From IMG/VR virus record IMGVR_UViG_3300029258_002403: a DNA stretch of 64,000 nt; one strand, 5' to 3'. The translations under genes were made by a program, and so were the position numbers. Origin of the DNA: an uncultured virus (IMG/VR IMGVR_UViG_3300029258_002403) (lineage: Duplodnaviria; Heunggongvirae; Uroviricota; Caudoviricetes). The notes beneath the pieces were generated by a model. The model had not been told where the DNA came from, did not search any database, and worked only from the letters and a program-made list of their open reading frames with translations. Position 1 is the first letter of the stretch. Every line of letters starts with the position of its first letter. This document shows, piece by piece, positions 37,691 to 53,810 of this stretch.

Positions 37691-37706
37691 ACCCACACCC
37701 TTGCGC

Positions 37707-38132
37707 CTAGTCGTGCGACACGGAAAGGGCGTCGCCCGTGATCGTCACGTCCGCCACCGCCACCGCGGCCACCCCATCCACGTCGGCAAGGGCCTTGGCT
37801 ACTTCGGCCGCGGTGTAGGGGACCGGGCCCAGGTCGGCCATGGACGACTCGGGGTCGTTGGCCAAAAGCCACTCCGCGGCGGCGTCCTGGTCGGCCCATC
37901 CCGTCCCATCGCACGTGGAGCACAAGGTCATGCTGGCCTGGGCGCGAAACCGACGAGCCACCACGTCCTGGGGGGTGGTGGTGGAACGAACGTCCGGGGT
38001 GACCCCGGTCCCCTCACAGCAAGGGCACTCCACCCGGCCCACGGCGCGCTTGGCCGCGGCGATCTCCGCCGACAAGGCCGTTTCCAGGACGGCCTTCAGC
38101 CGCTGGCGTGTTTGGTCTGGGGTCTGTTCCAT
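37707..38132 (-). CDS. Zinc-finger protein with sheath/baseplate-like C-terminal fragment
   Basis: CPCCEGTG, CSTCDGTG, AAAEWLL, then YTAAEVAKALADVDGVAAV. Confidence 0.65.
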   Translation of the reverse strand: MEQTPDQTRQRLKAVLETALSAEIAAAKRAVGRVECPCCEGTGVTPDVRSTTTPQDVVARRFRAQASMTLCSTCDGTGWADQDAAAEWLLANDPESSMADLGPVPYTAAEVAKALADVDGVAAVAVADVTITGDALSVSHD

Positions 38133-38350
38133 TGGGGAGCCACGTCCTCGATGTCATCGTACACCGCCTCGGCCTCGGCCTCGGGGTGCGTTCCGCAGTA
38201 AGGGCACGGCGCGCCGTCGTCCGGCTTGTAGTGCAGGGGAAACCCTGGTGAGGCAGAACACCACCTCCACCCCGGCGGGGGTTTGATCGGATCCCAGATC
38301 AACTGGTTGCCGTCCGCATCGTAGGCGTACACCCGCCCGGGGACCGCCAT
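38096..38350 (-). CDS. Small Cys/His protein
   Basis: TGATG overlap; CPYCG. Confidence 0.55.
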   Translation of the reverse strand: MAVPGRVYAYDADGNQLIWDPIKPPPGWRWCSASPGFPLHYKPDDGAPCPYCGTHPEAEAEAVYDDIEDVAPQWNRPQTKHASG

Positions 38351-38595
38351 CAGTCCCCTCCCTCCAGCATGGACTTGCTGGCGGCCAGTTTGAGCGCCGC
38401 GGCGATCACCTCGGCCCCATCGTACCCCAGCCGCAGGGTGAGCTTTACGGTAGGTTCTGCGCTGGCCGGGGCAGTAAGGGCCAGTTGATCCACCTGGACC
38501 CCGCTGTCCGCGCCCTTCTCCACCACGAACGCCACCGCGGCCCGAAGGCGGGCGTCCTGCTCCTTGCGGGTGATGGTCTTCTTCTTGGGGGGCAT
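38350..38595 (-). CDS. Hypothetical protein (ends AASKSMLEGGD)
   Basis: TGATG overlaps on both sides. Confidence 0.65.
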   Translation of the reverse strand: MPPKKKTITRKEQDARLRAAVAFVVEKGADSGVQVDQLALTAPASAEPTVKLTLRLGYDGAEVIAAALKLAASKSMLEGGD

Positions 38596-38909
38596 CAATC
38601 TTCCCCCAGGAGGCGCTGGGCGCACTCCTCCGCGGTGGTGAGGATCTTCCACTCCACCTTGACCCCCGCGGCTCGGCGGGCGTCCACGGCTCGGCGGGCT
38701 TTCTCGATCCACCGCCGGTCCATGGCCGACGCGTTGGGAGCCTCCACCACCACGTGGACCACCCCGCCAAGGAAAACCTCCTTGACCGCGTAGGCCCGGA
38801 AGAACCCCGCGGCCACCCCACCATCCAGGAGCTTGGCCAGGTCGGCCCGGGTGAGGGCGTCGTCGTCGGCCGCCACCACGAACTCGGCCAGTTCCGGCCA
38901 GTCACTCAT
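38595..38909 (-). CDS. Hypothetical protein (ends CAQRLLGED)
   Basis: Coupled ORF. Confidence 0.6.
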   Translation of the reverse strand: MSDWPELAEFVVAADDDALTRADLAKLLDGGVAAGFFRAYAVKEVFLGGVVHVVVEAPNASAMDRRWIEKARRAVDARRAAGVKVEWKILTTAEECAQRLLGED

Positions 38910-39078
38910 GTTGATCATCCACCCCTCCCTTGGCCACCACGGACACGGCCCCCAGAAGCCCCAGGGCGGCCACCACGAACACCACCCACGCAGGCCACCA
39001 CTGCTGACCCACCCACGCGGCGGCAAAGGCCAGGACCACCCACACCACCACCCACACCAACGCGCGGCCGCGGGTCAT
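38902..39078 (-). CDS. Small 2-TM membrane protein
   Basis: 'ALVWVVVWVVLAFAAAWV...WVVFVVAALGLLGAV'. Confidence 0.6.
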   Translation of the reverse strand: MTRGRALVWVVVWVVLAFAAAWVGQQWWPAWVVFVVAALGLLGAVSVVAKGGVDDQHE

Positions 39079-39458
39079 CCCGGGTTCTCCATGAGCCACG
39101 CGGCGGCCTTGGCCTTCAAGATCCGCCGCCGGCCGCGGCACAGGTCGCACTTCTCCACCATGTTGGTGTTCATCCACGTGGCAGGGTCCCCGTACTCCGC
39201 CCCGTACTCGTCGTCGTGGTCCCACTCCGCCATCTGGGCCTCTACGGAGAACGGGTCGTAGTCCCGGTCGTAGTCGTCGTCGTTGTCGGCGGCCACCCCC
39301 GCCACCATCTGGCGAAGGCGGCGGACGGCGTCCTCCCCCGCGGGAGGGCGCTCCGTGCTGGGGTTCATGATCGACCCCTTCTCCACCTGGAGGCCTGTCC
39401 CACCGCACGACGGGCACAGAACGAACTCCGCGGCAAGCACCCGGCGGTGATCCGTCAC
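39075..39458 (-). CDS. Zinc-finger protein with acidic insert
   Basis: CPSCGGTG...CDLCRG, ends AAAWLMENPG. Confidence 0.65.
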   Translation of the reverse strand: MTDHRRVLAAEFVLCPSCGGTGLQVEKGSIMNPSTERPPAGEDAVRRLRQMVAGVAADNDDDYDRDYDPFSVEAQMAEWDHDDEYGAEYGDPATWMNTNMVEKCDLCRGRRRILKAKAAAWLMENPG

Positions 39459-40111
39459 GCCCCCTCCACCCGGTGGACCTCCACCCGCACCTTGACAGGC
39501 CGGGCCGTGGTCCTCCACGACGGGTGGCCGCCCCGCACCAGCTTGCACCGCTCCCTGGCCAGGTCCCGGGTGTCGAAGGTGGCCACGGGAGGCATGTCCC
39601 CTCGCCCATGGCGGGGCCCCAGGGGGTCCCCAGGGGAGTCGAAGTAGAACCGACCGGCCAGGAACGGCTTGTCCACCGCCTTGCCGTTCTTCCAGTAGGT
39701 GATCTCCACAGCCCACCGCACCTCCGCGCGGGCCAGGGACGGAACCCCCGCCGCCGCCGTCTTGGCCCGGGTCTTGGCGGCCTTGCTCAACTCGGCGGCC
39801 CTGTCCTTGACGGCCCGTTCGGCACGTAAGCGGCGGCGGTCGGCCACCAACTTGGCCAACGTCCCCTTGCGTGCGGTGATCCACTGGCACCCCGGCCCCC
39901 CGTAGTACCCCACCCGCACGTCCGTGGCTTTGGGGTCCCCTTGGATCCGGTACCGCACATTGTTGGGGGTGGTGTCCTGGCCCTTCCACCGGATGGGGTC
40001 GTCGCCGCTCCCCAGGTAGTCGTCCAGTTCTGCGAACGCCGTGCTCGCGTTCATCTTCTCCGGGGCCAGATGCTCGATCTGGTCGTACCGATCCCAGTGT
40101 CGCCGCGCCAT
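39455..40111 (-). CDS. Hypothetical protein
   Basis: TGATG overlap; 218 aa. Confidence 0.6.
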   Translation of the reverse strand: MARRHWDRYDQIEHLAPEKMNASTAFAELDDYLGSGDDPIRWKGQDTTPNNVRYRIQGDPKATDVRVGYYGGPGCQWITARKGTLAKLVADRRRLRAERAVKDRAAELSKAAKTRAKTAAAGVPSLARAEVRWAVEITYWKNGKAVDKPFLAGRFYFDSPGDPLGPRHGRGDMPPVATFDTRDLARERCKLVRGGHPSWRTTARPVKVRVEVHRVEGA

Positions 40112-40383
40112 CAGTAGTTGTCCCTCACCACCCGCGGCCCCTGGGCGCAGTTGGGTTGCTGTACGGGGGCGCCCAGGGAGGCCACCACGTCGGCGCAGAA
40201 CTCCCGCCCCTCCTCCGTGATCCGCCACTGGTAGGCGCACGTGGGGTTGATCGACACCAGCCCCCTGGCCGCCAGCCGTTTGGCCGCCGCGTTGTACCCG
40301 TTGACCGGGTGATTGTCGTGCCCCTCGGCGGCGCACTTCCACAACGCCACCAGGAGGACCAAGTCGTTGATGCAGTGGGTCAT
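40111..40383 (-). CDS. Small winged-helix-like protein
   Basis: 'AAAKRLAARGLV...WRITEEGREF'. Confidence 0.6.
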   Translation of the reverse strand: MTHCINDLVLLVALWKCAAEGHDNHPVNGYNAAAKRLAARGLVSINPTCAYQWRITEEGREFCADVVASLGAPVQQPNCAQGPRVVRDNY

Positions 40384-40622
40384 GCGCGGCTCACGATCAC
40401 CCGGGCCCGCACGGGCTGGGAGCCGTACACGTACTCGTCGGGGTTCACCTGGGCGGCCGACTCGGCGGCCACCCGGCTCACGAGCACCCCCCGCTTGACC
40501 AGGCGCCGGATGGCAGCCCGGTGTTCCCGGGGGGCGGGTTGGGGCTTGTGGGGGGTGGTGTTGGCGTCCACCCACGCCAGGGCCGCGGCTTCTTCGGCCG
40601 CACGTCGTTCTCTCTTGGACAT
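40380..40622 (-). CDS. Small winged-helix-like protein
   Basis: 'AAIRRLVKRGVLV'. Confidence 0.55.
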   Translation of the reverse strand: MSKRERRAAEEAAALAWVDANTTPHKPQPAPREHRAAIRRLVKRGVLVSRVAAESAAQVNPDEYVYGSQPVRARVIVSRA

Positions 40623-40627
40623 ACCCC

Positions 40628-40975
40628 CTACTTGCGCGGGTCCTGGCCATTCCGTACTGCGTTCTGCGCCGCCGCGGTGTCCCGGAGCACCTTTTCGGCG
40701 GCGGCCACCAACCCCAGGATGTCCCGGGCCCCCTCGTGGTCCAGGTTCACCTTCCCCTCCAGGGTCACCAGCCGCCGGCGGCTGAACTTGGCCACCAGCT
40801 CCCCCAGGACCAGGAGGGCCATGTCCCGCTGGTCGCACGCGGCTTCGTTCATGGCCGACACCCGCTCCAGGCGGCCGGTGATCTCCTGGCACGCGGCCAG
40901 GGCCTGCTCGGCCACCTCCAGGTACTCCTTGGCCAGGATCCGGTACTTGGCGGCCTCGTGGGTGAAGTCAGTCAT
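40628..40975 (-). CDS. Helical hypothetical protein
   Basis: 115 aa, coupled. Confidence 0.6.
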   Translation of the reverse strand: MTDFTHEAAKYRILAKEYLEVAEQALAACQEITGRLERVSAMNEAACDQRDMALLVLGELVAKFSRRRLVTLEGKVNLDHEGARDILGLVAAAEKVLRDTAAAQNAVRNGQDPRK

Positions 40976-41210
40976 CGTCGGTCAGCAGTTCGTTGGCAGC
41001 CAGGTTTACGATAGGGTGGAGGGACCCGCTCCAGCCTGCCCGACACGCGGCCATCACGTCCACTCGGTTGAGCCCCCCGCACAGGGGGCACGCGGCCATC
41101 CCGCGGTTCTTGCCGATCGGCGGGCCGGGGACTTGGCCCCTCCCCTGGCACTGGGGACAGGTGGCGGTACCGCGCCCCGTGGCGCGTGTGCCCGCAAGTC
41201 CCCTGCGCAC
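40968..41210 (-). CDS. CxxCxGxG zinc-finger protein
   Basis: CPQCQGRG, CPLCGG; ends LAANELLTDDD. Confidence 0.6.
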   Translation of the reverse strand: MRRGLAGTRATGRGTATCPQCQGRGQVPGPPIGKNRGMAACPLCGGLNRVDVMAACRAGWSGSLHPIVNLAANELLTDDD

Positions 41211-41675
41211 CTACACCCCGCTGCCGCGGCGGTGGTCCGGGGCTTCACTCCCGGGGATCGTGGTTTGGACAGGCTGGCCCCTGGTCTCGGCGGCCACCTT
41301 GAGCACCCGCCGCATGGATCGGTTGACGCTCTTGGCGGCCTTGGTCCCCGTCCCGAACACACACCCCACGGCGTACTCCCCCTCCACCCGCACGGCGTAG
41401 GTGTACCCCCCGGCCACGGTCTTGAGGTGGAACGGGTCGGCGGGGTTGGCCCACGGCTTGCCGGGGGCGTAGGCCACGGCCTGTTCCACCGCGTCCTGTA
41501 GCCACTGGCCCCGGCCGATCCTGTCCCCGTGGAACCCCTTGCCGGGCCCGTCCCACAGCACCACGTGGGTTACCCCGTCGAGCCGCCGCAGATTGTCCAT
41601 CTGCTTGAGGACCAGATGGTGGATGGGCGGGCCGCCGCCGCTGGGGTCGGTGGTGCGGAGCTTGAAGGACGGCAT
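41211..41675 (-). CDS. Roadblock/LC7-like protein
   Basis: 'MDNLRRLDGVTHVVLWDGPG...YTYAVRVEGEYAVGCVF...VNRSMRRV'. Confidence 0.45.
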   Translation of the reverse strand: MPSFKLRTTDPSGGGPPIHHLVLKQMDNLRRLDGVTHVVLWDGPGKGFHGDRIGRGQWLQDAVEQAVAYAPGKPWANPADPFHLKTVAGGYTYAVRVEGEYAVGCVFGTGTKAAKSVNRSMRRVLKVAAETRGQPVQTTIPGSEAPDHRRGSGV

Positions 41676-41914
41676 CAGTACACCTCCCCCCGGACTACCG
41701 GCGCGGTTGAGCGCGCAGGTACGCGCACCACTTTGCTGGGATGGGGGACGGTGATCGGGGACAGGGCCCCGCCCAGGGGGCTCACGTACAGGCTCGCCTC
41801 CCTGGCGTCGAGCACCTTGCATGGAGTCCACGGGTCCCCGGGCCGAGGGGCACCCCCGGTTCCGCGGAACACCCCGGCCCACACCTCCACTGTGTCGTCG
41901 GCACGAACGGTCAT
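41675..41914 (-). CDS. Small hypothetical protein
   Basis: 79 aa, coupled. Confidence 0.55.
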   Translation of the reverse strand: MTVRADDTVEVWAGVFRGTGGAPRPGDPWTPCKVLDAREASLYVSPLGGALSPITVPHPSKVVRVPARSTAPVVRGEVY

Positions 41915-41938
41915 GTCTCACACTAGCGCGATCCCCGG

Positions 41939-42229
41939 CTAGTCGTCCATGTCCAGCAGCTCCTGCGCGGTGGGGCGCCGGAGATCCACGGCGGGGCAGT
42001 AGTACCGTCCCCCGCTGTCGAACCCGCCCACCAGGGCGCTCTTGGACAAGTCCTGGGACAGCACCATCCACGTGGCCGACCCGTCGTGCCGCGGCCCCCG
42101 GCCACCGTCCCGGTTGGGGGCGCACGCCCGGAGGACCGTCACGGGGATCGCCTTCCAGTCCCCGAACAGGATGGGGACCATCAGGGTGGTCCCGTTGGCC
42201 GCAGCGGCGGCCACCTCCTCGTCGGTCAC
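41939..42229 (-). CDS. Hypothetical protein (ends LRRPTAQELLDMDD)
   Basis: GTGA overlap. Confidence 0.6.
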   Translation of the reverse strand: MTDEEVAAAAANGTTLMVPILFGDWKAIPVTVLRACAPNRDGGRGPRHDGSATWMVLSQDLSKSALVGGFDSGGRYYCPAVDLRRPTAQELLDMDD

Positions 42230-42519
42230 GTCCACAACCCCGTGAAGTCCGGGATGGAGATCCACGCCGGGGCCGGCGGGGCCTGGACTTCCCCGGTGAG
42301 CAACTCGGCCGCGGTGGCTAGGCGGATGTCCGCGAAGTTCCGGTTGAAGATCCGGGTCCCCAACTGGACCCGCCCGTACCGCTCCCCAAACCGGGGGACG
42401 CACACGTCCAGGGTGTCCATCACCCGAAAGTCCAGCGCCTCCCCCTGCGGGGTGTAGCGCACGTAACTCACCACGGGGAGGTTGTCCTCCACGGCGCGCC
42501 TGAACTCCGCCTCAGTCAT
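42226..42519 (-). CDS. Hypothetical protein (IRLATAAELL)
   Basis: GGAGG RBS. Confidence 0.6.
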   Translation of the reverse strand: MTEAEFRRAVEDNLPVVSYVRYTPQGEALDFRVMDTLDVCVPRFGERYGRVQLGTRIFNRNFADIRLATAAELLTGEVQAPPAPAWISIPDFTGLWT

Positions 42520-42805
42520 GGTCCTCCACCATGGCCTTGGCGGCCGCGTTGGCGTACTCCTCCCGAAGGGCCAGGAGCTTCCCCCACCGAGCGCACGGGA
42601 GGCACCGGGACCCATCCCCGGCACACTGGCAGTCGTGGGCCATGGCGATCTCCAGGGCCTCCCCGATCCGGGGATCGCACAGGACCCGGATGGCCGCGTC
42701 TCGCTCCTGCTCGGCCTTGGTGAGGGCGGACTCCAAGCCCTGGGCGGCGCGGCCCCCCAGGGGGTTGGCGTCCCTGGCCACATCTCGCACTGTCCGTTTA
42801 GTCAT
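42512..42805 (-). CDS. Hypothetical protein (ends AAAKAMVEDHD)
   Basis: CQC...CLPC. Confidence 0.6.
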   Translation of the reverse strand: MTKRTVRDVARDANPLGGRAAQGLESALTKAEQERDAAIRVLCDPRIGEALEIAMAHDCQCAGDGSRCLPCARWGKLLALREEYANAAAKAMVEDHD

Positions 42806-43190
42806 CGGCCACCAGCAGTTCCGCGGCGGTCAGCCGCCGCACGTGTTGTCCTTCCACGTGCCCCCGCCCGCTGTGATGCACGTCCTTGTACCGATCCCCC
42901 GCCCCGGGGACCAACTTGGCGGCCAGGATGAACTCCACCACCACCTCGTGGCAGGTCCGATTGTGGGCCATGGACCGCACGCTCACGTCCACCATGGTGG
43001 CGGGGACCCACTCCCGCATGGGCACCGTGGTGATCGTGCTCGCAGGGCTCGACGCGGTGAACCACCCCATGGGGTCGAACGCCACCGCGTCCTTGCGCTC
43101 CAGGTGGACCATCACCACCTCCCCCCGAAGGGCCAAGTCCCGCAGGGTCTCGGCACGTTCAAGCACCTCCCGCGCGATGTCACCCCGCAT
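42798..43190 (-). CDS. Hypothetical protein (ends VRRLTAAELLVADD)
   Basis: GGAGG RBS. Confidence 0.6.
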   Translation of the reverse strand: MRGDIAREVLERAETLRDLALRGEVVMVHLERKDAVAFDPMGWFTASSPASTITTVPMREWVPATMVDVSVRSMAHNRTCHEVVVEFILAAKLVPGAGDRYKDVHHSGRGHVEGQHVRRLTAAELLVADD

Positions 43191-43440
43191 GAGGGTCCTC
43201 CCAGGGGAGAGAGTCGTACTCGCAGTCATCGGGCGGGTCCAGGTGGCGTTCCAGGTAGCAATCGCGCCACGCCTTGGCCACAGCCCGCGCCTGGTCCCGC
43301 TCCGCGGTGAGGGCCTCCTCCTGGTCCAAGATCCACCGGAGAGCAGACGCCTCCTGGGCGTCATACGATCCCCCATAGCGAGCCTTGAGGTGGGCCAACC
43401 GGCGCTCCAGGAACTGCCGCCGTTCCGATCGCTTGGTCAT
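43180..43440 (-). CDS. Hypothetical protein
   Basis: ATGA overlap. Confidence 0.6.
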   Translation of the reverse strand: MTKRSERRQFLERRLAHLKARYGGSYDAQEASALRWILDQEEALTAERDQARAVAKAWRDCYLERHLDPPDDCEYDSLPWEDPHAG

Positions 43441-43700
43441 GGGCCCTCCACGAGCAGGTCGGCGGCGGTGGCCACCCGCACTTGGTCCGGCCACAGCCAG
43501 AAGTGGCCACTCGCCACAGCGCTCGGAACGTCCCCCCGGAACGGGAGGGACGTGCCCCCCAGGGTGTCCGCCCCCTTGACATACTTCACCACCATCCCGG
43601 CGTTGGTCCCCTCCCGCATGACGAACAGGGCCCCCTGTGCGGCCAGGCGCACCACGTCTCGCCGTTGGAGCGGGAGCGAAGTTACCGGTTGATCAGCCAC
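43437..43700 (-). CDS. Hypothetical protein (ends VRVATAADLLVEGP)
   Basis: Coupled ORF. Confidence 0.55.
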   Translation of the reverse strand: MADQPVTSLPLQRRDVVRLAAQGALFVMREGTNAGMVVKYVKGADTLGGTSLPFRGDVPSAVASGHFWLWPDQVRVATAADLLVEGP

Positions 43701-43945
43701 TGGGCGGCCTCCCCCTTGGTCACGGTCTTGTATCCTTGGCACAGTGGACACTTGCGCTGCTCCCCCGTCCGTGTGTACTCCCACGCGGCGGCGCGGCGGA
43801 TCGCCTCGTCGGGTTGGACGGGGCCGCCCCGCGCCGCGTGTGCGTCTCGGATCCACCCCGCATCGAAGTCGCACCAGGGGGCGCCATTGTTCTGGGTGTC
43901 CCCTGTCCCGTAACACCCCGGGCACTCGATCCGGTGGTCATCCAT
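43682..43945 (-). CDS. CxxCxGxG zinc-finger protein
   Basis: CPGCYGTG, CPLCQG; ends EAAQWLINR. Confidence 0.65.
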   Translation of the reverse strand: MDDHRIECPGCYGTGDTQNNGAPWCDFDAGWIRDAHAARGGPVQPDEAIRRAAAWEYTRTGEQRKCPLCQGYKTVTKGEAAQWLINR

Positions 43946-44246
43946 CGTCCCCCTCCACCATCACCTTGGCCGCGGCGGCCTGGAGGACCGCGTCCCAGTC
44001 GTGGCCCCCGTACTTCTGGGCCAGGCGGCACAGGTCGGCTAGCACCCGCACGTTGTGCAGGGTGGTGTGGATCTCGGCACGGACCATGGTCCCCCGATGC
44101 TCCCGGACGGCCATGCCCACAGGGGTGTGCTCCTCCGCGTAGTCGTGTTCCATGGACAGGGTGTGGATCCCCGCCCACCGAAGGGCGTCCAGGAGGTCGT
44201 GGTACTCGTCGGCCCCGGCCGGGGGCTCGGAACTACGGCGAGCCAT
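43938..44246 (-). CDS. Hypothetical protein (ends AAAAKVMVEGDDG)
   Basis: Coupled ORF. Confidence 0.6.
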   Translation of the reverse strand: MARRSSEPPAGADEYHDLLDALRWAGIHTLSMEHDYAEEHTPVGMAVREHRGTMVRAEIHTTLHNVRVLADLCRLAQKYGGHDWDAVLQAAAAKVMVEGDDG

Positions 44247-44454
44247 GGCCCTCCTTGGCGGCCGCGTCGGCGCTCACGATCTCGTCGTACCGCTCCTCCG
44301 GGCTGTGCAAGGTGGACCCCAGAACCCGCTCCACCAAGGCGATCCCCGCGGCCCGCTCCTCGGCCGACCCCTTGGGGGCGGTGCCGTAGCACCAGGCCAA
44401 ATACCGCAGGCTCCGGTTGTTGGGGTCCAGGTACCGCCGCTTAGGTGGGGTCAT
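44233..44454 (-). CDS. Hypothetical protein
   Basis: 73 aa. Confidence 0.55.
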   Translation of the reverse strand: MTPPKRRYLDPNNRSLRYLAWCYGTAPKGSAEERAAGIALVERVLGSTLHSPEERYDEIVSADAAAKEGHGSP

Positions 44455-44719
44455 CGGGGGCCTCCAGGAGCTTCTTGGCCACGTACGCCTTGACCGCGGC
44501 GGCCAGGGTCTCCATGCCGTCCCCCCACACCCGAACGGTAAGGCGCGTTTCCAACTCCGCCTCCGGGGCCGCGCTCCCCAGGGCCTCGATGTGGGTCACG
44601 TCCACCCCGGCGGCCGGGCCGAACTCCACCAAGGTGGCCAAGGCGGCGGACTGATCCCGCCTCTTGGCACGGGACGCGGCCATCTCCCGGCGGTGGCGGG
44701 CTGCTGGGTCCTCTGCCAT
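44441..44719 (-). CDS. Hypothetical protein (ends VAKKLLEAPDDPT)
   Basis: TGATG overlap. Confidence 0.6.
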   Translation of the reverse strand: MAEDPAARHRREMAASRAKRRDQSAALATLVEFGPAAGVDVTHIEALGSAAPEAELETRLTVRVWGDGMETLAAAVKAYVAKKLLEAPDDPT

Positions 44720-45261
44720 CACCCGCCCCCCATGGCCCGGAGGAGGGCCTTGGCGCAGTCCTGGACGGGGTACCCCTGGGGCGGGTGGTACCGCCACACG
44801 TGGCGGGCCCCCAGGCCGTCCGGGTCGTCCGCCAGGGCGCCAAGGAACTCCCGGTCCAAGGTGTACCCCGGCCACGTCACCACCCGGGAGGCCCACACGT
44901 CCAGGGGGACGGGGTCGGGGAGCCCCGGGCGGGGGAGGATCGCGGTGGACCGCAGGAGAACGGCCGCCTCATCCACCACCCGGATCGCCCCCATGGCGTC
45001 GTTGGTGGCCCGCTCCCCGTAGTCGCCCCCCACGATCTCCATGAGGGCCGCGGCGGTGGCCTCCAACTCGGCCAGGTTGTACCCGAACTGGATGTGGCCG
45101 GCGGCCACCACATTCCCCCCGGTGTGCTCCCAGGGGACCTGCGCGTCGGGCTTGCCCTGGTTGCGCCTGTCCGCGCGGGACCAGTACAGGGCGTCAAACA
45201 CCTTCATGCGCAGGTCGGCGGGGATCAGGACTCGCCTCTCGGCCAGTTTCATGGTCTTCAC
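44719..45261 (-). CDS. Hypothetical protein
   Basis: GTGA overlap. Confidence 0.6.
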   Translation of the reverse strand: MKTMKLAERRVLIPADLRMKVFDALYWSRADRRNQGKPDAQVPWEHTGGNVVAAGHIQFGYNLAELEATAAALMEIVGGDYGERATNDAMGAIRVVDEAAVLLRSTAILPRPGLPDPVPLDVWASRVVTWPGYTLDREFLGALADDPDGLGARHVWRYHPPQGYPVQDCAKALLRAMGGG

Positions 45262-45827
45262 TGTCCCCCCTTGAGCATGGCGTCGGCCTTTGTGTTGGCG
45301 GGGACCAGGGCCACCAAGGCGTTGACCTGCGCCGGGGTCATGGTGATCTCGGCCTTGCGGTCGTTCCAGTTGCGGTCCACGTGCTCCCCGATCAGCATCC
45401 CCACCAACTCGGCGGCGGCATTGGCCGCGTCCCGGTAGCCCGCCTTGGCGTCCTGCTTGATCTGCCGAGCGGCGTGCTCGGCCTCCTCCACGGTGGCGTC
45501 CCCTTCGGCGTACTGGATCAGGCCCAGGCTCACGCTGGTGGGCGCCCCCCACGTCCCGCTTTCGTGCCACTGCTCGATGATGGCGTGAGGGGCGGGGTCC
45601 TTGGCCCTGGACTTCCGCCTGCGCTCATCCCGGGTGAACGTCACCACCTTCCTCTCGCGCCTCCCGGTCTGGGGGTTCCACTTGTGGCGGATCTCGCAGT
45701 CCTCGTCGGCCTTGACGATCCGAATCCGCACACGGGGGGCACCCTTGCGGGCCGGGGCCAGGGAGCAGATCCGGCCGGGGGTGAGCTTCTCCTGCTTGCG
45801 CTTCCAGTTGGTGGTGGTCTTCGGCAT
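45258..45827 (-). CDS. Hypothetical basic protein
   Basis: ATG 45827, ends KADAMLKGGQ. Confidence 0.6.
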   Translation of the reverse strand: MPKTTTNWKRKQEKLTPGRICSLAPARKGAPRVRIRIVKADEDCEIRHKWNPQTGRRERKVVTFTRDERRRKSRAKDPAPHAIIEQWHESGTWGAPTSVSLGLIQYAEGDATVEEAEHAARQIKQDAKAGYRDAANAAAELVGMLIGEHVDRNWNDRKAEITMTPAQVNALVALVPANTKADAMLKGGQ

Positions 45828-45858
45828 GTAGGGTTCTTGCGCCGCTGGGAAAGGGTGG

Positions 45859-46299
45859 TCACCGGCCGCCCCGGGCCGCCGAACTGTAGAACCGGAGGCG
45901 AACTCGGAACCGCTCGTCGTCCTCTCCCGGGCGGCGGGTGGCCCCGTATGCCTGGGCCAACCTGTCCAGGCCACTCCCGTGGGCCGTGTTGATCGCGGCG
46001 AACGCCGTGGTCCCGTCCCCGTCCTCCTCCAGCATGGCCTGGGCCGCCAGGGGGCGGACGGCCGCGGCCACCTCGGGGCGCACAACCCCCGCCCCCCGGC
46101 ACCAGGGGCATAGGCGGCTCAAGCCGTGGAACTTGACGTAGGGCCACCCCCGGCACCAGGGGCACACCTCCGTGTCCGCGGCCGTCCGCTGGCGCCGGTT
46201 GCGCTCGTTGCACCGGCTCCAGTCCCAGTCCGGGGCCTCGGGGTAGAACGCCCCGGCCACGATCCGGTGGTCGGCCCGGATGGGAAGGGGGCCGCTCAC
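45859..46299 (-). CDS. Zinc-finger protein with baseplate-like C-terminal fragment
   Basis: CPWCRG twice, AAQAMLEEDGD, then TAHGSGLDRLAQAYGATRRPGEDDERFRVRL. Confidence 0.65.
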   Translation of the reverse strand: MSGPLPIRADHRIVAGAFYPEAPDWDWSRCNERNRRQRTAADTEVCPWCRGWPYVKFHGLSRLCPWCRGAGVVRPEVAAAVRPLAAQAMLEEDGDGTTAFAAINTAHGSGLDRLAQAYGATRRPGEDDERFRVRLRFYSSAARGGR

Positions 46300-46631
46300 T
46301 GGTCGGCGCTCCCGTCCAGCATGGCCGCGGCGGCCCGGCCCGGGGTCACCCACCGAACCCCCAGGCAGCAGGAGCAGTCGTTGTAGGCCACGGGGGGCAA
46401 GTCCACCCGCCGAATCACCCCCGTCCCGGCGCAGTACCCGCAGGCGTGTTTCCCCAGGCTCGGACTGGCCAGGCGGCCGGTCCCGTCACACGCCACGCAC
46501 GGGACGTACCCGCACACGGGGCACAGGACATCGGCGGCCGCGGGGGTGGTGTCAGCGGCCGCGGCGGCGGCTTCCCCGCCGGGGGAAGGGTGTTCCGAAG
46601 GGGCTTGGGAACGGGCTTCCGACTTGGGCAC
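46296..46631 (-). CDS. CxxCxGxG zinc-finger protein
   Basis: Four CxxC pairs; ends AAAAMLDGSADQ. Confidence 0.65.
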   Translation of the reverse strand: MPKSEARSQAPSEHPSPGGEAAAAAADTTPAAADVLCPVCGYVPCVACDGTGRLASPSLGKHACGYCAGTGVIRRVDLPPVAYNDCSCCLGVRWVTPGRAAAAMLDGSADQ

Positions 46632-46637
46632 GGTGTT

Positions 46638-47108
46638 CTACTTCTTTCGCGCGCGCGATGGAGTTCGGGTGAGCCACCGGGCCATCCTGGGGAAACGGTC
46701 CAAAACGGCCTCCAGCAGGTTGCCAAGGCCCTTCCCCACGTGGTCGTGGTCGTGGACCACCCGGCGCTTGGCGGGGGCGGGGTCCAGGTGGACCTTGCCC
46801 ATGTCGTCCACCACCACGTGGTACGGGATCTCCCCTGCCGCCCTGGCGGCTCGTTCCATGGCTTGGTTGAACTGGCGGGCGGACTTCCCTGCTTGGCGGA
46901 CCCCCTGAACGGCGTAGGTGTGCCAGGCGATCCCCGCGGGGTAGCTCACCTCGGGGCGGGGATCGTCGTCGTCCCCATGTTCCAGGAGCCACTGGGCCGC
47001 CTGTTCGGGTGTGCATTGGCCTACGTCCAGGCAGCAGGGGCACGACTCGGCGTTGTAGTTGCGGAGTTCCGGGGTGCAGGCCGGGCACGGCACGAGGTTG
47101 TGGGTCAT
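46638..47108 (-). CDS. Zinc-finger protein with appended C-terminal segment
   Basis: CPAC, CPCC, QAAQWLLEHGDDDD plus about 105 aa. Confidence 0.65.
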   Translation of the reverse strand: MTHNLVPCPACTPELRNYNAESCPCCLDVGQCTPEQAAQWLLEHGDDDDPRPEVSYPAGIAWHTYAVQGVRQAGKSARQFNQAMERAARAAGEIPYHVVVDDMGKVHLDPAPAKRRVVHDHDHVGKGLGNLLEAVLDRFPRMARWLTRTPSRARKK

Positions 47109-47542
47109 GGGCCCTCCTTAGCGGCGTCGATCGCGCGGGTGAAGGCGTCCACCAGGCGGTCAGGGTCCACGCTGGTCCCCACCTCCGTGTTGATGGTGAT
47201 CCGGTGGATGCGCGGGTGGAGGAACCCCTCCAGTTCCGGGTCGGCGGCCAGGATGGCGGCGGCCGCGGCGCCGGGGGAGCACCGCCCTTCTCCCCCGCAC
47301 GTGGGGCACGTGCGCTGGTAGTGCCACGTCCCCTGGGGCATGTACCGCCGGGGTGTCCCGTCCTTGGACAGCCACGCGTCGGCGTCCTCCCGGGAGCATG
47401 ACTCCGTGCATTGCTCCCCCCTCCCGGCGCCGCACGTGGGGCACTCGTGGACCAGGGCGCGCTGGTGAGGGGAGAGCACGTCCCGGTTGGGGTGGTGACT
47501 CAAGTCGCACGTGGGGCACGTCACCAGGGCGGGGTCAGTCAT
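47105..47542 (-). CDS. Zinc-finger protein with tape-measure-like C-terminal fragment
   Basis: CPTC three times, AAAAAILAADPE, then IHRITI...DPDRLVDAFTRAID. Confidence 0.65.
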   Translation of the reverse strand: MTDPALVTCPTCDLSHHPNRDVLSPHQRALVHECPTCGAGRGEQCTESCSREDADAWLSKDGTPRRYMPQGTWHYQRTCPTCGGEGRCSPGAAAAAILAADPELEGFLHPRIHRITINTEVGTSVDPDRLVDAFTRAIDAAKEGP

Positions 47543-47774
47543 CGGTGGCGCACCTGCACTGGATGTGGAGGGGAGGGGTCCCGAAGGGAGACCCCACTGG
47601 CTCGTCGGCCGCCAGTAGGGCCGCGGCCACGTGATTGCGGTACGCGGCGGCGTCCTCCGGGGGAACTCGGCCGTACCCTGCGCACTCGTCGCACGGCAGG
47701 GGAGGGTCGTAGGTCCCGGGCTCGGCCCGCCCGCCGTGGCAGTGAGGGCAGGTGACCAGGGTGGAATCAGGCAT
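47535..47774 (-). CDS. Zinc-finger protein ending in a gpF-like PPLHxxCRC motif
   Basis: CPHCHG, CDECAGYG, AAALLAADE, PPLHIQCRC. Confidence 0.65.
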   Translation of the reverse strand: MPDSTLVTCPHCHGGRAEPGTYDPPLPCDECAGYGRVPPEDAAAYRNHVAAALLAADEPVGSPFGTPPLHIQCRCATDD

Positions 47775-48117
47775 CGTCTTCCTCCATGAGGCGGCGGTAC
47801 ATCTCCGGGTGGATGGCCACCGTCGCGGGAACCGGGACCGGTTTGGCGTTTCGAAGGATCTCCGCGGCCCGGCGGACATCGGCGGCGGTGAGGGCCCCGG
47901 GGGTGGGGTCGTCTTCCAGGATCAGGGCCGCGGCGGCCTTGTCGGGGGTGGTGTGGCCGGCGCCGTCGCACACAGGGCACAGACCCGTCCCGTGGCACGC
48001 AGGGCACTCCACCCACCCGCTGCTGCTCACGGCCTGCTTGCCCGTGCCGTCGCACGCCCTGCACCGCACGGTCTCCCCGTGGCACAGAGGGCACGGGACT
48101 TGGCGTTCTCCGTCCAC
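47767..48117 (-). CDS. Zinc-finger protein with capsid-like C-terminal fragment
   Basis: Four CxxCxG, AAAALILEDD, then ALTAADVRRAAEILRNAKPVP..VAIHP. Confidence 0.65.
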   Translation of the reverse strand: MDGERQVPCPLCHGETVRCRACDGTGKQAVSSSGWVECPACHGTGLCPVCDGAGHTTPDKAAAALILEDDPTPGALTAADVRRAAEILRNAKPVPVPATVAIHPEMYRRLMEEDDA

Positions 48118-48148
48118 GTCCCAACCTAGCGCGGCGGGACCGCGGTCG

Positions 48149-48610
48149 TCACGGGGGGATCGTGGCGGGGATGTAGATGTCGGTGACCTGCCGGGGCGGC
48201 CCCGTGAGCTTGCGGAACGTGCCCCGGAGGCGGCGGTTGGCGTCGTTGTCGGGGTTGGTCCCGATGGGGCCGCTCGCGCCCAGGGTGTCCGGGACCGGAA
48301 CGTCCGCCAGGGTGCGTGCCTGGATCGTCTCCACGGGGACCCGGCGCAGAGCGTCCTGGGCGGTCATCTTCTCCACGTCCTCCCCCCGAAGGCCCTGCTC
48401 GCGATAGAACCGCTCGATGTCGATCGCCTCCTGGTCGTTCACCTCCGCCCCCAAGGCGCCGGTGACCCGGGTGATGGGGATGGTGAGCGCGCCGACCCAC
48501 GTGGGCGGGGTGGGGTCCACCGACACGTCCATGGCCTTGCCGGCCGGGCCGTCGAAGTACCACTGCACGGTGCGGGTGCGGATCTCGGATAGCGAGACAA
48601 CGGCGGCCAT
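48149..48610 (-). CDS. Hypothetical protein
   Basis: 153 aa; TGG-TAGAAT 9 nt upstream of ATG. Confidence 0.6.
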   Translation of the reverse strand: MAAVVSLSEIRTRTVQWYFDGPAGKAMDVSVDPTPPTWVGALTIPITRVTGALGAEVNDQEAIDIERFYREQGLRGEDVEKMTAQDALRRVPVETIQARTLADVPVPDTLGASGPIGTNPDNDANRRLRGTFRKLTGPPRQVTDIYIPATIPP

Positions 48611-48634
48611 AGGCCGCCGATTCTACCACGGGAG

Positions 48635-48937
48635 TCACCCGTTGAGGAGGGCCCTGGCCCCAACGTCCCGGGGGACCGTCTTGGCCCCCTGGCACAGTGA
48701 GCACGGGACGTTGCCCCTCCCCCCGCAGTTGGGGCAGTCGTGGGACCCCTTGGGGTCCTCCCCGTCCCCCTGGCACTCCCTGCACACCTCCGTGCCGAAG
48801 GCGTAGTCCTTGGCACCCCCGCAGTCCTGGCAGGGGACCATCACCCGACGACCCCCCTCCAGGGTGGGGTGCTGTCCATGCTCGTCGCAGCGGTGGCAGC
48901 GTCCCCAGCAGGCCGGACAGGGGACCCGGTCAGTCAT
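48635..48937 (-). CDS. Multi-CxxCxGxG zinc-finger protein
   Basis: Six CxxC pairs; ends GARALLNG. Confidence 0.65.
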   Translation of the reverse strand: MTDRVPCPACWGRCHRCDEHGQHPTLEGGRRVMVPCQDCGGAKDYAFGTEVCRECQGDGEDPKGSHDCPNCGGRGNVPCSLCQGAKTVPRDVGARALLNG

Positions 48938-49298
48938 GGTCCCCTTGTCGGGCCGTCCACACCGGCAGGCCGGTGCGCAGGGCCTCCTGGCGTGCCTGGG
49001 ACACGACCCGGAGCCTCCCATCCCAGTCCGCCCCCGGGGGGTCGTCCTGGTCCATGAGCCACTGGGCGGCCTGGGCCCTGGTGACGGTCCCTTCCCCGTG
49101 GAGTTCTCCGCACAGGTCACACGCGGCGAACCCTGTGCCGCCGCAGGCGCCACACCACCCCTGGCTGTCCTCCGGGTCCCCGAACCCGGACCCGTCGCAG
49201 TAGGGGCAGGTGGCGCTTTGGGCCACGTCGGCGCAGGCGGGGCACTGGATGGCCTCCTGGGCGGCAAGCACGTCGGCCGCGGTAGTGTCGTCGGTCAT
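48930..49298 (-). CDS. Zinc-finger protein with DnaB-like C-terminal motif
   Basis: Four CxxC, QAAQWLMDQDD, then QEALRTGLPVWTARQ. Confidence 0.65.
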   Translation of the reverse strand: MTDDTTAADVLAAQEAIQCPACADVAQSATCPYCDGSGFGDPEDSQGWCGACGGTGFAACDLCGELHGEGTVTRAQAAQWLMDQDDPPGADWDGRLRVVSQARQEALRTGLPVWTARQGDHD

Positions 49299-49330
49299 AC
49301 CCCCCCTCTATCGCCGCGCGCCCAAGGCGT

Positions 49331-53809: not shown

Positions 53810-53810
53810 G

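What the first reader, a model, noticed from the sequence alone, without database searches (positions are those of the whole stretch)
37707..49298. Candidate decoy/mimic system: zinc-finger scaffolds carrying fragments of essential phage proteins
Seen: seven small genes share one architecture: CxxC(xGxG) knuckles, an 'AAxxLL/AAxAML'-acidic helix, then an unrelated tail. Four tails align by eye to this phage's own proteins: tape measure (47105), major capsid (47767), baseplate (45859), sheath (37707). Two match family motifs: gpF head morphogenesis (47535) and DnaB helicase (48930). One is ambiguous (46638). Sibling genes (46296, 43682, 48635, 39075) stop right after the helix, so the tail looks like swappable cargo. 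A stand-alone capsid fragment also sits at 53573. Established: bacterial defence sensors detect conserved phage proteins (Avs: terminase/portal; CapRel: capsid; DSR2: tail tube). Inference: the chimeras may display trigger epitopes to titrate immune sensors, poison assembly of competing phages, or reflect a gene-birth hotspot. I know of no description of such a cassette, but have not searched.
Basis: partly seen in the sequence, partly recalled or inferred. Interest (0 to 1): 0.92.

Follow-up and report, generated by a model that had tools for sequence, protein, structure and literature searches.

The report
Zinc-ribbon phage genes carrying virion-protein fragments
A phage carries a tandem family of small zinc-binding proteins, several of which end in short copies of conserved pieces of tail, baseplate and capsid proteins; the pattern is real but smaller than first claimed, and what it is for is untested.

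Summary
The window is a ~70% GC myovirus-like phage contig with all its genes on the minus strand. Between 36.5 and 49.3 kb lie 13 small paralogs, not 7+4. Each has DnaJ-CRD/anti-TRAP-like CxxC(xGxG) zinc knuckles. In 12 of 13 an 'AAxWLL'-acidic helix follows.

Of the seven tails:
- Two pass shuffle/HMM controls: 47105 carries the conserved tape-measure C-terminal motif, and 45859 carries a baseplate-J N-terminal motif of a foreign J lineage.
- 47535 (MuF HxxCRC motif) has short, consistent support.
- 47767 (capsid) has weak support, which becomes clear only in a relative's homologous tail.
- 37707 (sheath), 48930 (DnaB) and 46638 fail.
- The tails of 37707 and, weakly, 48930 recur in other phages.

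The stand-alone capsid fragment at 53573 is supported.

A related phage (L029) fuses the 45859-type scaffold to other modules instead: a second zinc module, a marginal sheath-like segment and the capsid-like module.

My reading: a lineage-specific, translationally coupled array of small zinc-ribbon protein binders. It is remodelled by in-frame fusion at overlapping stop/start junctions, and some tails derive from virion-protein motifs. A decoy or assembly-mimic function is possible but untested.

The parts
36539..36790 (-). zinc-ribbon paralog (83 aa), two CPTCGGxG knuckles, no AAxxLL helix
   Evidence: Pfam DnaJ_CXXCXGXG 24.0 bits, below cut-off; alignment
37707..38132 (-). zinc ribbon + helix (AAAEWLL) + 46-aa tail. 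The tail is not sheath-like but is homologous to the tail of P0066 from another phage.
   Evidence: own-proteome shuffle test p 0.48; tail vs P0066 tail SW 55 vs maximum 53 in 500 shuffles; tail profile finds no virion protein
39075..39458 (-). tail-less sibling, ends AAAWLMENPG*
40968..41210 (-). tail-less sibling, ends AANELLTDDD*
   Evidence: Pfam Zn_ribbon_4, sub-threshold
43682..43945 (-). tail-less sibling, ends EAAQWLINR*; ortholog P0126 in another phage
   Evidence: SW 174 vs shuffle maximum 54
45859..46299 (-). zinc ribbon + helix (LAAQAML) + 50-aa tail (45862-46011) carrying the baseplate-J N-terminal motif GxxLDxLAxxYGAxRxxGExDERFRxR
   Evidence: PHROG 1160 E 9.5e-6, 5857 E 3.2e-4, 7378 E 6.4e-4; tblastn to Wolbachia phage WO protein J, 58% over 31 aa; SW 96; Atlas feature hits to Baseplate_J_N clusters, score 0.80, a lead only
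46296..46631 (-). tail-less sibling, ends AAAAMLDGSADQ*
   Evidence: blastp E 4e-7 to 47767
46638..47108 (-). zinc knuckles + helix (AAQWLL) + 107-aa tail with no detectable relative; a variable patch at residues 107-114 in strain variants
   Evidence: no hits; compensated frameshift keeps the frame
47105..47542 (-). two zinc modules + helix (AAAAIL) + 42-aa tail (47108-47233) carrying the conserved tape-measure C-terminal motif IH+..(V/I)..DPDR(V/L)(I/V).AF.RA(V/I)D
   Evidence: SW 63 vs maximum 57 in 300 shuffles; HMM of 8 foreign tape-measure C-termini gives 14.6 bits vs at most 5.7 in 2000 shuffles
47535..47774 (-). zinc ribbon + helix (AAALL) + 20-aa tail ending PPLHIQCRCATDD, which resembles the C-terminal motif of the MuF/head-morphogenesis family
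   Evidence: 7 of 7 PHROG hits at E 0.04-0.4 are head-morphogenesis or minor-head families; no Pfam MuF hit
47767..48117 (-). zinc ribbons + helix (AAAALIL, model helix 58-68) + 45-aa tail (47770-47904); the tail is conserved in L029 and weakly capsid-like
   Evidence: AF2 pLDDT 85.7; tail vs L029 tail SW 77; hhalign vs capsid family P 0.003; own-capsid tests negative
48635..48937 (-). tail-less sibling with several knuckles, ends ARALLNG*
48930..49298 (-). zinc ribbons + helix (AAQWLM) + 33-aa tail; no DnaB signal; a weakly similar tail occurs in P0122
   Evidence: nothing; SW 31 vs shuffle mean 19.4, maximum 37; blastp P0122 vs 48930 E 4e-9
53573..53818 (-). stand-alone small protein between QueD and QueE whose residues 10-42 copy a conserved major-capsid segment (capsid residues 249-281)
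   Evidence: SW 67 vs maximum 59 in 300 shuffles; z 6.4; HMM of 4 foreign capsid proteins gives 11.5 bits vs at most 6.0 in 2000 shuffles
14204..16270 (-). putative tape measure protein; residues 645-675 are the counterpart of the 47105 tail
   Evidence: Pfam TMP_3, sub-threshold; position after tube and chaperone-sized genes; C-terminal motif invariant in 9 homologs
26188..27603 (-). major capsid protein; residues 249-281 are the counterpart of 53573 and of the 47767-type tail
   Evidence: PHROG 1357 E 1.6e-19; tblastn to annotated capsid genes
4556..5662 (-). this phage's own baseplate J-like protein; not significantly similar to the 45859 tail
   Evidence: Pfam Baseplate_J E 5e-31; SW 43-51, p 0.07-0.18
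18832..21372 (-). putative tail sheath. No window tail matches it, but residues 41-68 marginally match a segment of the L029 fusion protein.
   Evidence: PHROG 23 E 5e-4; SW 62, reached by 2 of 400 shuffles; sheath-N HMM 6.6 bits vs at most 4.1 in 2000 shuffles

Best explanation
WHAT IT IS. A lineage-specific tandem expansion of small stand-alone zinc-ribbon proteins. Each has DnaJ cysteine-rich-domain / anti-TRAP / BSD2-like knuckles followed by one amphipathic helix. The genes lie in a co-directional, translationally coupled block between the DNA-metabolism genes and the virion genes.

HOW IT CHANGES. New members arise by duplication and by in-frame fusion or fission with neighbouring small modules. 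The break point is the overlapping stop/start junction, where '...LLxEDD*' is encoded over ATGA or ATGACTGA. This is why tail-less and tail-bearing forms coexist, and why the same scaffold carries different tails in a related phage.

WHERE THE TAILS COME FROM. Some fused or neighbouring modules are short, diverged copies of the most conserved segments of virion proteins: the tape-measure C-terminus, the baseplate-J N-terminus, a capsid helix-strand segment and, less surely, the MuF HxxCRC motif. The other tails are unrelated small modules that are themselves conserved between phages.

HOW IT LIKELY WORKS (inferred, not shown). Like anti-TRAP and BSD2, these proteins probably act as small zinc-stabilised protein binders made before or during assembly. 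Members carrying a virion-derived motif would then have affinity for whatever partner that motif normally contacts.
For: SHOWN
- 13 paralogs with invariant Cys columns.
- Sub-threshold Pfam hits to DnaJ_CXXCXGXG, Anti-TRAP, BSD2_CRD and Lar.
- AF2 model with pLDDT 85.7 and a helix right after the last knuckle.
- Foldseek top hits are DnaJ zinc domains, BSD2 and anti-TRAP (E 3.5e-3 to 1).
- 25 of 40 junctions in the block overlap, 15 of them as 4- or 8-nt ATGA/ATGxxTGA overlaps.
- Tape-measure, J and capsid motifs pass shuffle/HMM controls.
- L029 has the 45859-type scaffold fused in frame to other modules.
- 47105 itself contains two zinc modules, and 47767's tail ends in its own '...RRLMEEDDA*' terminus.
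- Homologous scaffolds with and without tails occur in other phages: P0066, P0100, P0122, P0126.
- Tail conservation between the window and L029 (about 38%) lies within the range of clear orthologs (27-57%).
- Strain variants keep the reading frames: a 6-nt insertion in 48930, a 3-nt insertion in 45258, a compensated frameshift in 46638, and 37 substitutions with no indel over 47965-49194.
- 0 of 10 more distant relatives (sheath 33-51% identical; 3 at least 90% complete) hold the family.

FROM A PAPER
- Anti-TRAP is a zinc ribbon plus a C-terminal helix and binds its target protein (passages of PMC10327191).
Against: - Every family assignment of the scaffold is below Pfam's curated cut-offs, and the Foldseek E-values are weak.
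- The virion-derived matches are only 20-35 residues long. MuF, the 47767 tail and the L029 sheath-like segment are marginal.
- Gene starts are my own codon-bias calls.
- No expression, metal-binding or interaction data exist.
- Only one related locus (L029, cut at its contig end) shows an alternative fusion.
- The helix motif also ends many non-zinc proteins of the block, which this account does not explain.
Confidence: 0.5

Rival explanations
1. Assembly-interface mimics. The virion-derived tails occupy the docking sites normally used by the tape-measure C-terminus, the J N-terminus, the capsid segment and MuF. They would either hold the phage's own assembly intermediates in check, as a chaperone or cap like BSD2 on RbcL, or poison the assembly of co-infecting relatives, tailocins or other contractile systems.
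For: - The copied segments are the most conserved parts of their source proteins. The tape-measure C-terminal motif is invariant in 9 homologs that are otherwise 39-54% identical.
- All supported sources are virion-assembly proteins.
- The J-like and MuF-like pieces resemble foreign lineages rather than this phage's own proteins.
- The relative L029 carries capsid-like and marginally sheath-like pieces on the same scaffold family.
Against: - No interaction was tested successfully.
- The motifs are diverged: 6 of 17 invariant tape-measure C-terminal positions are kept.
- Three of seven tails have no virion counterpart.
- Structural families have the best profiles, so there is a detection bias towards finding them.
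Confidence: 0.15
2. Immune decoys. The tails display epitopes of conserved phage proteins to saturate host sensors that fire on tape measure, baseplate, capsid or portal-associated proteins.
For: - The same anatomical facts as above.
- From recall, not from any call: defence sensors are known to recognise conserved structural proteins.
- The genes lie upstream of the late genes in the direction of transcription.
Against: - A decoy for a sensor of this phage's own proteins should resemble them. The J-like and MuF-like tails do not, and the 47767 tail fails against the phage's own capsid.
- The host and its defence systems are unknown.
- In 4 literature searches and passages of two reviews, the decoys described are DNA or nucleotide mimics, not structural-protein fragments.
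Confidence: 0.07
3. Virion address tags. The virion-derived motif targets the zinc-ribbon module into the head or tail as a minor packaged component, to be delivered into the next host. From recall, MuF-fused toxin domains are thought to work this way.
For: - From general knowledge, the MuF, tape-measure C-terminal and capsid segments are all parts that contact the inside of the particle.
- The scaffold is small and zinc-stabilised.
Against: No virion proteomics exist, and most members lack such a motif. This reading is pure inference.
Confidence: 0.08
4. Non-functional mosaic debris. Scraps of structural genes landed by illegitimate recombination in a permissive block of small genes and were read through by chance.
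For: - The tail-bearing genes have a low codon-bias score (0.16-0.38 per codon, against about 0.5-0.7 for long genes).
- The pieces are diverged.
- One tail (46638) carries a hypervariable patch.
- Scaffold-tail pairs differ between relatives.
Against: - The 47767-type, 37707-type and (weakly) 48930-type tails are recognisable in other phages whose true orthologs are only 27-57% identical.
- Frames are kept in strain variants.
- Phage genomes rarely keep neutral DNA (general knowledge).
Confidence: 0.15

Closest known systems
Anti-TRAP (Bacillus rtpA/yczA product; Pfam PF15777)
   Same: A small stand-alone protein with a zinc ribbon bearing a DnaJ-like CxxCxGxG knuckle, followed directly by one C-terminal helix. 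It acts by binding another protein (passages of PMC10327191). Anti-TRAP is the best Pfam hit of 47767 (24.3 bits) and appears among the Foldseek hits (3LD0, 2BX9).
   Different: Scores are below Pfam's cut-off of 32 bits. The phage proteins have 2-5 knuckle pairs, variable inserts and, in seven cases, a further tail. Trimerisation through the helix is not shown, and nothing links them to TRAP.
DnaJ cysteine-rich domain and BSD2 (Rubisco assembly factor)
   Same: The same knuckle motif and fold class. The top Foldseek hits are 2CTT, 7ZHS, 6EKB and 1EXK (E 3.5e-3 to 3e-2, probability 0.96-0.99). BSD2 is a stand-alone CRD that caps an assembly intermediate (entry titles).
   Different: There is no J domain and no DnaJ C-terminal domains. 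All Pfam scores are below the cut-off in the window proteins. TM-scores are low (0.2-0.44).
Lar-like restriction-alleviation zinc ribbons and the Q-lambda zinc ribbon
   Same: Small phage zinc ribbons. The hits are weak: P0122 to Lar 23.2 bits, 37707 to Q-like PHROGs at E 2e-5, and Q-lambda among the Foldseek hits.
   Different: All hits are sub-threshold and cover the knuckles only. There is no evidence for either function.
Baseplate J / gp47 / gp6 family (N-terminal domain)
   Same: The 45859 tail has the N-terminal J motif.
   Different: Only about 35 residues are present. The central and C-terminal J domains are absent, and the piece is fused to a zinc ribbon in a non-structural gene block.
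Phage anti-defence decoys and mimics (e.g. the Ocr DNA mimic)
   Same: The idea of a phage protein that imitates something the host machinery recognises (passages of PMC12409349).
   Different: The decoys described in the texts I read imitate DNA or signalling nucleotides, not fragments of structural proteins. No binding to any defence protein is shown here.

Membership tests
Anti-TRAP (PF15777) | Score at or above Pfam's gathering cut-off (32 bits) | tested here: not met
   Best score is 24.3 bits for 47767; the others score 9-19 bits.
Anti-TRAP (PF15777) | Zinc ribbon with four Cys, including a CxxCxGxG knuckle, followed directly by a C-terminal helix | tested here: met
   Invariant Cys columns and a helix in 12 of 13 members; AF2 model helix at residues 58-68 after the last knuckle.
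Anti-TRAP (PF15777) | Homotrimer through a three-helix bundle | not testable with these tools
   Needs SEC-MALS, native mass spectrometry or a structure. The one co-folding attempt is recorded under Tried and rejected.
DnaJ cysteine-rich domain (PF00684) | Score at or above the cut-off (32.7 bits) | tested here: not met
   Best scores are 24.0 bits (36539) and 22.3 bits (47767) in the window, and 28.0 and 27.8 bits in relatives P0100 and P0122.
DnaJ cysteine-rich domain (PF00684) | Embedded between a J domain and DnaJ C-terminal domains | tested here: not met
   No DnaJ or DnaJ_C hit in any member; the proteins are 79-156 aa.
DnaJ cysteine-rich domain (PF00684) | Fold similarity to solved CRDs | tested here: inconclusive
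   Foldseek top hits are CRDs (probability 0.96-0.99), but E is 3.5e-3 or worse and TM is 0.2-0.33.
Baseplate J | N-terminal motif | tested here: met
   45859 tail: PHROG E 9.5e-6, 3.2e-4 and 6.4e-4 at profile positions about 56-103; Wolbachia phage WO protein J, 58% over 31 aa.
Baseplate J | Central and C-terminal domains (full Pfam Baseplate_J) | tested here: not met
   No Baseplate_J hit at E up to 10; the tail is 50 aa.
Tape measure protein | Conserved C-terminal motif of this tape-measure lineage | tested here: met
   47105 tail scores 14.6 bits against an HMM of 8 foreign homologs, vs at most 5.7 in 2000 shuffles.
Tape measure protein | Long helical body of hundreds of residues | tested here: not met
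   The match covers 29-32 residues only.
HK97-like major capsid protein | Full capsid fold or family profile | tested here: not met
   53573 matches profile positions 252-280 only. 47767 fails the HMM (-2.4 bits). Linocin_M18 reaches only E 0.17-0.24 on the L029 tail.
MuF / SPP1 gp7 head morphogenesis | MuF domain | tested here: not met
   No Pfam hit. Only the last 12-20 residues of 47535 match the ends of 7 PHROG profiles, at E 0.04-0.4.
DnaB helicase (claimed for 48930) | Any DnaB motif | tested here: not met
   No Pfam or PHROG hit at E up to 10.
Tail sheath (claimed for 37707) | Similarity to the window's sheath or to the sheath family | tested here: not met
   Tail shuffle test p 0.48. 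No early window protein appears in the sheath-N HMM search.
Anti-defence decoy | Binds and blocks a host defence protein | not testable with these tools
   The host is unknown and no sensor is identified.

The most novel reading that the evidence does not exclude
This phage lineage has turned a small zinc-ribbon fold into a display platform for the docking motifs of virion proteins: the tape-measure C-terminus, the baseplate-J N-terminus, a capsid helix-strand, the MuF terminus and, in a relative, the sheath N-terminus. The resulting cassette of interface mimics would be remodelled by gene fusion. It would control or sabotage the assembly of contractile-tail particles (the phage's own, competitors' or host tailocins), or blind host sensors of those proteins.
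Probability: 0.17. Interest if true: 0.85.

Novelty: new variant of a known kind. Interest (0 to 1): 0.6.

Why it matters
Small cysteine-knuckle genes are common but unexplained in phage genomes. Here one such family offers a handle. Some members carry recognisable copies of the best-conserved segments of four virion proteins, and the scaffold-tail combinations differ between two related phages.

If the tails bind the partners of their source proteins, this would be a natural system of assembly-interface mimics or trigger decoys. That is a counter-measure or competition strategy not described in the texts I could search. It would also supply ready-made peptides that mark assembly interfaces.

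If they do not bind, the locus still documents how overlapping stop/start junctions let phages build new small proteins by in-frame fusion.

Tried and rejected
SEARCHES THAT FOUND NOTHING USEFUL
- Megablast of 37000-50000 against phage records: no match.
- tblastn of 47105 and 53573 against phage records: no match.
- The search for related loci with 48149: none. With 49393: only a 99% identical variant that ends before the array.
- The search for homologous proteins with 47105: only itself and a 99% identical fragment.
- G001 and G004 are the same virus as the window, so they give no independent information.
- G002 (capsid 79%, tape measure 45% identical) has a different early region with a single zinc-ribbon gene and no tail.
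- L030 and L031 (weak hits of P0126) hold no family member.
- The long metagenome relatives (e.g. L013, 84 kb) could not be read beyond the tape-measure gene.
- The search for related loci would not take alignment A2.

TESTS THAT GAVE NOTHING
- Pfam at E up to 10 on the full proteins: no MuF, DnaB, tape measure, capsid or sheath family.
- Internal start codons behind the helix, which would mean separate tail genes: none convincing.
- Co-folding of three copies of 47767 (complex prediction): verdict 'no answer', score 0.01 against a mark of 0.42. This is not evidence either way.
- Expression: no RNA holder listed among 10 runs.
- pN/pS on the tails: not computable, because the variant table was cut (162 rows not shown).
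- Atlas look-up of 53573: no usable hit.
- Earlier scan notes: none for this genome; a second look-up failed on word count.

DNA-LEVEL EXPLANATION OF THE HELIX MOTIF
- Rejected for the AAxxLL part, because its codons vary synonymously (CTT, TTG, CTC, CTA, CTG; GCC, GCG).
- Accepted for the terminal E-(D/G)-x-D-D*, which is encoded over the next gene's Shine-Dalgarno sequence and the ATGACTGA overlap.

LITERATURE
- Four full-text searches and 'find' passages in two reviews turned up no description of zinc-ribbon proteins carrying structural-protein fragments.
- I saw only listings, abstract starts and those passages. Subscription journals are not covered.

Full report
**Context**

- The window has 66-72% G+C throughout. 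By third-position G+C and a codon model trained on its long ORFs, essentially all confident genes lie on the minus strand.
- Read in the direction of transcription, the order is:
  - DNA metabolism: gp32-like SSB, RecA/UvsX, SbcCD, RuvC, ParB.
  - A 7-deazaguanine cluster: DpdA-like, QueD, QueE, FolE.
  - A block of about 42 small genes (50.6 to 35.3 kb).
  - Virion genes: scaffold, major capsid 26188-27603, putative sheath 18832-21372, tube, putative tape measure 14204-16270, baseplate J 4556-5662.
- It is a myovirus-like phage with no close annotated relative. The best capsid match is 34% identical (Streptomyces phage Kromp).
- G001 and G004 are the same virus. Identical proteins occur on contigs up to 93.5 kb.
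- The DNA is found in sediment and seawater metagenome runs.

**The architecture is real**

- Their alignment has four invariant Cys columns. Two Gly and one Ala of the helix are kept in at least 90% of rows. The consensus is CPxCxGxG...CPxCxGxGxVxPxxAAxxLLxxD.
- 12 of 13 have the helix. Five stop 2-7 residues after it and seven run on into a tail.
- Pfam gives only sub-threshold hits, to DnaJ_CXXCXGXG, Anti-TRAP, BSD2_CRD, GRXCR1-2_C and Lar.
- An AF2 model of 47767, built on a 17-row alignment, has mean pLDDT 85.7. It shows beta-hairpin knuckles and a helix at residues 58-68 directly behind the last knuckle.
- Foldseek's best PDB matches are DnaJ zinc domains, BSD2 and anti-TRAP, with weak statistics: E 3.5e-3 to 1 and TM 0.2-0.44.
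- Anti-TRAP has the same layout, a zinc ribbon followed by a C-terminal helix that forms a three-helix bundle (passages of PMC10327191).

**The helix motif**

- The pattern [AT]A..[LMI][LMVI] occurs 26 times in 4,823 residues of the 41 early proteins scored (5.4 per 1000). In 41 late proteins it occurs 6 times in 10,918 residues (0.55 per 1000), and in 18 replication proteins 5 times in 4,085 (1.2 per 1000).
- The last residues of the tail-less forms, (L/M/V)-E-(D/G)-x-D-D*, are encoded over the next gene's Shine-Dalgarno sequence and its overlapping start. 25 of 40 junctions overlap, 15 of them as ATGA/GTGA or ATGxxTGA.
- The AAxxLL part is not explained that way, because its codons vary synonymously.
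- The tail-bearing forms continue from the same '...DD' with Pro/Gly-rich linkers. This is what loss of the overlapped stop would give.

**The tails against this phage's own proteins**

- All-against-all blastp of 100 window proteins gave two hits of small proteins to late proteins that later held up under shuffle controls. These were 47105 to tape-measure residues 645-675 (37.5% over 32 aa, E 8e-4) and 53573 to capsid residues 250-281 (43.8% over 32 aa, E 5e-5).
- Smith-Waterman with composition-matched shuffles against all window proteins (300 shuffles) confirmed these two: 63 vs maximum 57, and 67 vs maximum 59.
- The same test rejected the others: 45859 (best hit is indeed baseplate J, but p 0.18), 47767 (p 0.91), 37707 (p 0.48), 46638, 47535 and 48930.
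- A systematic scan of 47 small proteins against 41 late proteins (150 shuffles each) gave the same answer. 2 of 47 beat every shuffle (z 6.4 and 3.7), and the rest look like the null.

**The tails against families**

- *47105 (tape measure).*
  - The tape-measure C-terminus is the most conserved part of that protein in 9 homologs.
  - An HMM built from the 8 foreign ones scores the 47105 tail at 14.6 bits.
  - That makes it the only non-tape-measure protein of 100 above noise, and the score is above all 2000 shuffles (at most 5.7 bits).
- *53573 (capsid).* An HMM of four foreign capsid proteins scores it at 11.5 bits (shuffles at most 6.0), at the conserved segment lkElR..v..lRr..vP....g.Yh.
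- *45859 (baseplate J).*
  - The tail alone hits 8 PHROG families, of which 4 are annotated baseplate or wedge proteins, 2 virion structural and 2 unknown. All hits fall at profile positions about 50-100, and the top three are baseplate families (E 9.5e-6, 3.2e-4, 6.4e-4).
  - It also matches Wolbachia phage WO protein J.
  - The ESM Atlas's nearest named clusters carry Baseplate_J_N (score 0.80, a lead only).
  - The phage's own J belongs to another PHROG (phrog_6), so this piece is foreign.
- *47535 (MuF).*
  - The last 30 residues give 7 PHROG hits, all head-morphogenesis or minor-head families, each weak (E 0.04-0.4) and covering 12-20 residues.
  - The name 'PPLHxxCRC MuF motif' itself is from recall.
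- *37707, 48930, 46638.* No family was found for these tails.

**Relatives**

- A profile of the 13 paralogs run against 1.84 billion representatives found 917 proteins at E up to 1e-3. Most of the best 150 are long multi-knuckle proteins.
- Among the small ones, several carry the same scaffold and helix:
  - P0100 (80 aa) ends right after '...AAAWLLTAGED'.
  - P0126 is an ortholog of 43682 (SW 174).
  - P0066 has a tail homologous to 37707's (55 vs maximum 53 in 500 shuffles).
  - P0122 has a tail weakly like 48930's (31, not above the shuffle maximum of 37).
- So at least the 37707 tail is a conserved module of its own, not a sheath scrap.
- P0122 led to L029, a 19.5 kb contig of a related phage (69% G+C). 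Its orthologs are 27-57% identical to the window's: SbcC 47%, ParB 49%, 49393 27%, 48149 28%.
- In L029 one ORF (11052-11951, cut near the contig end) contains, in frame, five parts:
  1. An ortholog of the 45859 scaffold (SW 118 vs shuffle maximum 53), without the J tail.
  2. A second zinc module most like 48930, 47767 and 47535.
  3. A segment matching residues 41-68 of the window's sheath (SW 62, reached by 2 of 400 shuffles).
  4. Another 'EEAHELLVEDD' helix.
  5. A module homologous to the 47767 tail (SW 77), whose best late-protein match is the window's capsid residues 251-270 (50, above all 400 shuffles).
- An HMM of 41 foreign sheath N-termini scores the L029 protein at 6.6 bits. That is above 2000 shuffles (at most 4.1) but only E 0.82 for that search, so it is marginal.
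- A two-sequence profile of the 47767-type tail aligns to the capsid family at residues 248-294 with P 0.003 and probability 11%. Pfam's encapsulin shell family Linocin_M18 is a weak hit to the L029 tail (E 0.17-0.24).
- I therefore rate 'capsid-like' for 47767 as weakly supported.
- None of 10 more distant relatives holds the family at E up to 0.1. Their sheaths are 33-51% identical and 3 are at least 90% complete. G002 holds one tail-less member. The expansion is lineage-specific.

**Selection**

- Contigs of four further metagenome runs carry strain variants.
- Those visible keep the reading frames:
  - a 6-nt insertion in 48930;
  - a 3-nt insertion in 45258;
  - a one-base deletion and insertion 6 nt apart in the 46638 tail, which changes 8 residues but keeps the ORF;
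  - one contig with 37 substitutions and no indel over 47965-49194;
  - 45859 nearly unchanged.
- The variant table was cut, so pN/pS could not be computed.

**Reading**

- *Shown:*
  - a translationally coupled paralog array of anti-TRAP/DnaJ-CRD-like zinc ribbons;
  - motif-sized copies of tape measure, baseplate J and capsid, and less surely MuF, on or beside that scaffold;
  - different scaffold-tail combinations in a relative.
- *Inferred:*
  - fusion and fission at the overlapping junctions generate the chimeras;
  - the proteins act as small protein binders;
  - virion-derived tails confer affinity for assembly partners.
- The decoy, poison and packaging readings are open, and none is excluded. 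The J-like and MuF-like pieces are foreign rather than self-like, which fits competition or acquisition better than a decoy for sensors of this phage's own proteins.

**Limits**

- The matches are 20-35 residues long.
- Several hypotheses were tested, so p values near 0.005 are only suggestive.
- Gene starts are my own calls.
- Only one informative relative locus was reachable.

Noticed in passing
window 35324-50652 (minus strand): The helix motif is not confined to the zinc-ribbon genes. A PSSM built only from the 12 zinc-family helices was scanned over the other proteins. In 9 of 28 other early proteins its best match lies 11-15 residues from the C-terminus (e.g. ...TAAELLVADD*...AAKAMVEDHD*...TAQELLDMDD*). 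The same is true of only 1 of 59 late or replication proteins. At least two further paralog groups share it: 41939/42226/42798/43437 and 38350/44441. The L029 proteins also end this way. The terminal acidic residues follow from SD and start overlap; the AAxxLL part is unexplained.
   Followed up: partly
window 32966-33814 and 30850-32955 (minus strand): The C-terminal 173 residues of the 282-aa protein are 43% identical to the C-terminus of the neighbouring 701-aa protein (blastp E 1e-29). Both end ...YQPQY(L/I)SR(T/R)P*. This is a partial duplication of a large head-module protein of unknown family.
   Followed up: no
window 28539-28844 (minus strand): A small ORF between the 446-aa head-module protein and the scaffold carries YCGxGxG...LDxxCxxHDxxY. 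It has sub-threshold hits to phospholipase A2 families (Pfam E 4e-4 and 2e-3).
   Followed up: partly
window 52318-55758 (minus strand): A 7-deazaguanine DNA-modification cluster: FolE (E 1e-71), QueE-like radical SAM, QueD (E 2e-17) and a DpdA/TGT-like protein (PHROG E 3e-31), followed by a ParB-like gene. The capsid-motif gene 53573 sits between QueD and QueE.
   Followed up: no
window 50277-50304 and 50620-50652: Two adjacent genes (49393-50304 and 50356-50652) start with runs of 8-10 threonines (MTTTTTTTT...). The read-laying tool skipped repeats at 50268-50310 and 50613-50660.
   Followed up: no
L029 10601-11014 vs window 48149-48610: The homolog of 48149 (28% identical, E 1e-18) lies on the opposite strand in L029, inside the zinc-ribbon block. 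This is a local inversion between relatives.
   Followed up: no
G002 (L008, L009, L025): Strong mosaicism. Against the window, G002's capsid protein is 79% identical, its sheath 68% and its tape measure 45%, and the early region is unrelated.
   Followed up: partly
window 38096-38349 (minus strand): A probable 84-aa gene missed by my caller (MAVPGRVYAYDADG...). It starts at a TGATG junction with 38350-38595, carries a single CPYC, and overlaps the start of 37707-38132 by 37 nt.
   Followed up: no
window 36004-36567 (minus strand): A 187-aa protein with an HELFH (HExxH-type) motif and no Pfam or PHROG hit. It may be a small metallopeptidase.
   Followed up: no
window 46764-46833: A hypervariable patch in the 46638 tail in run X5. 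There are 10 substitutions plus a compensating 1-nt deletion and insertion within 26 nt, changing residues 107-114.
   Followed up: partly
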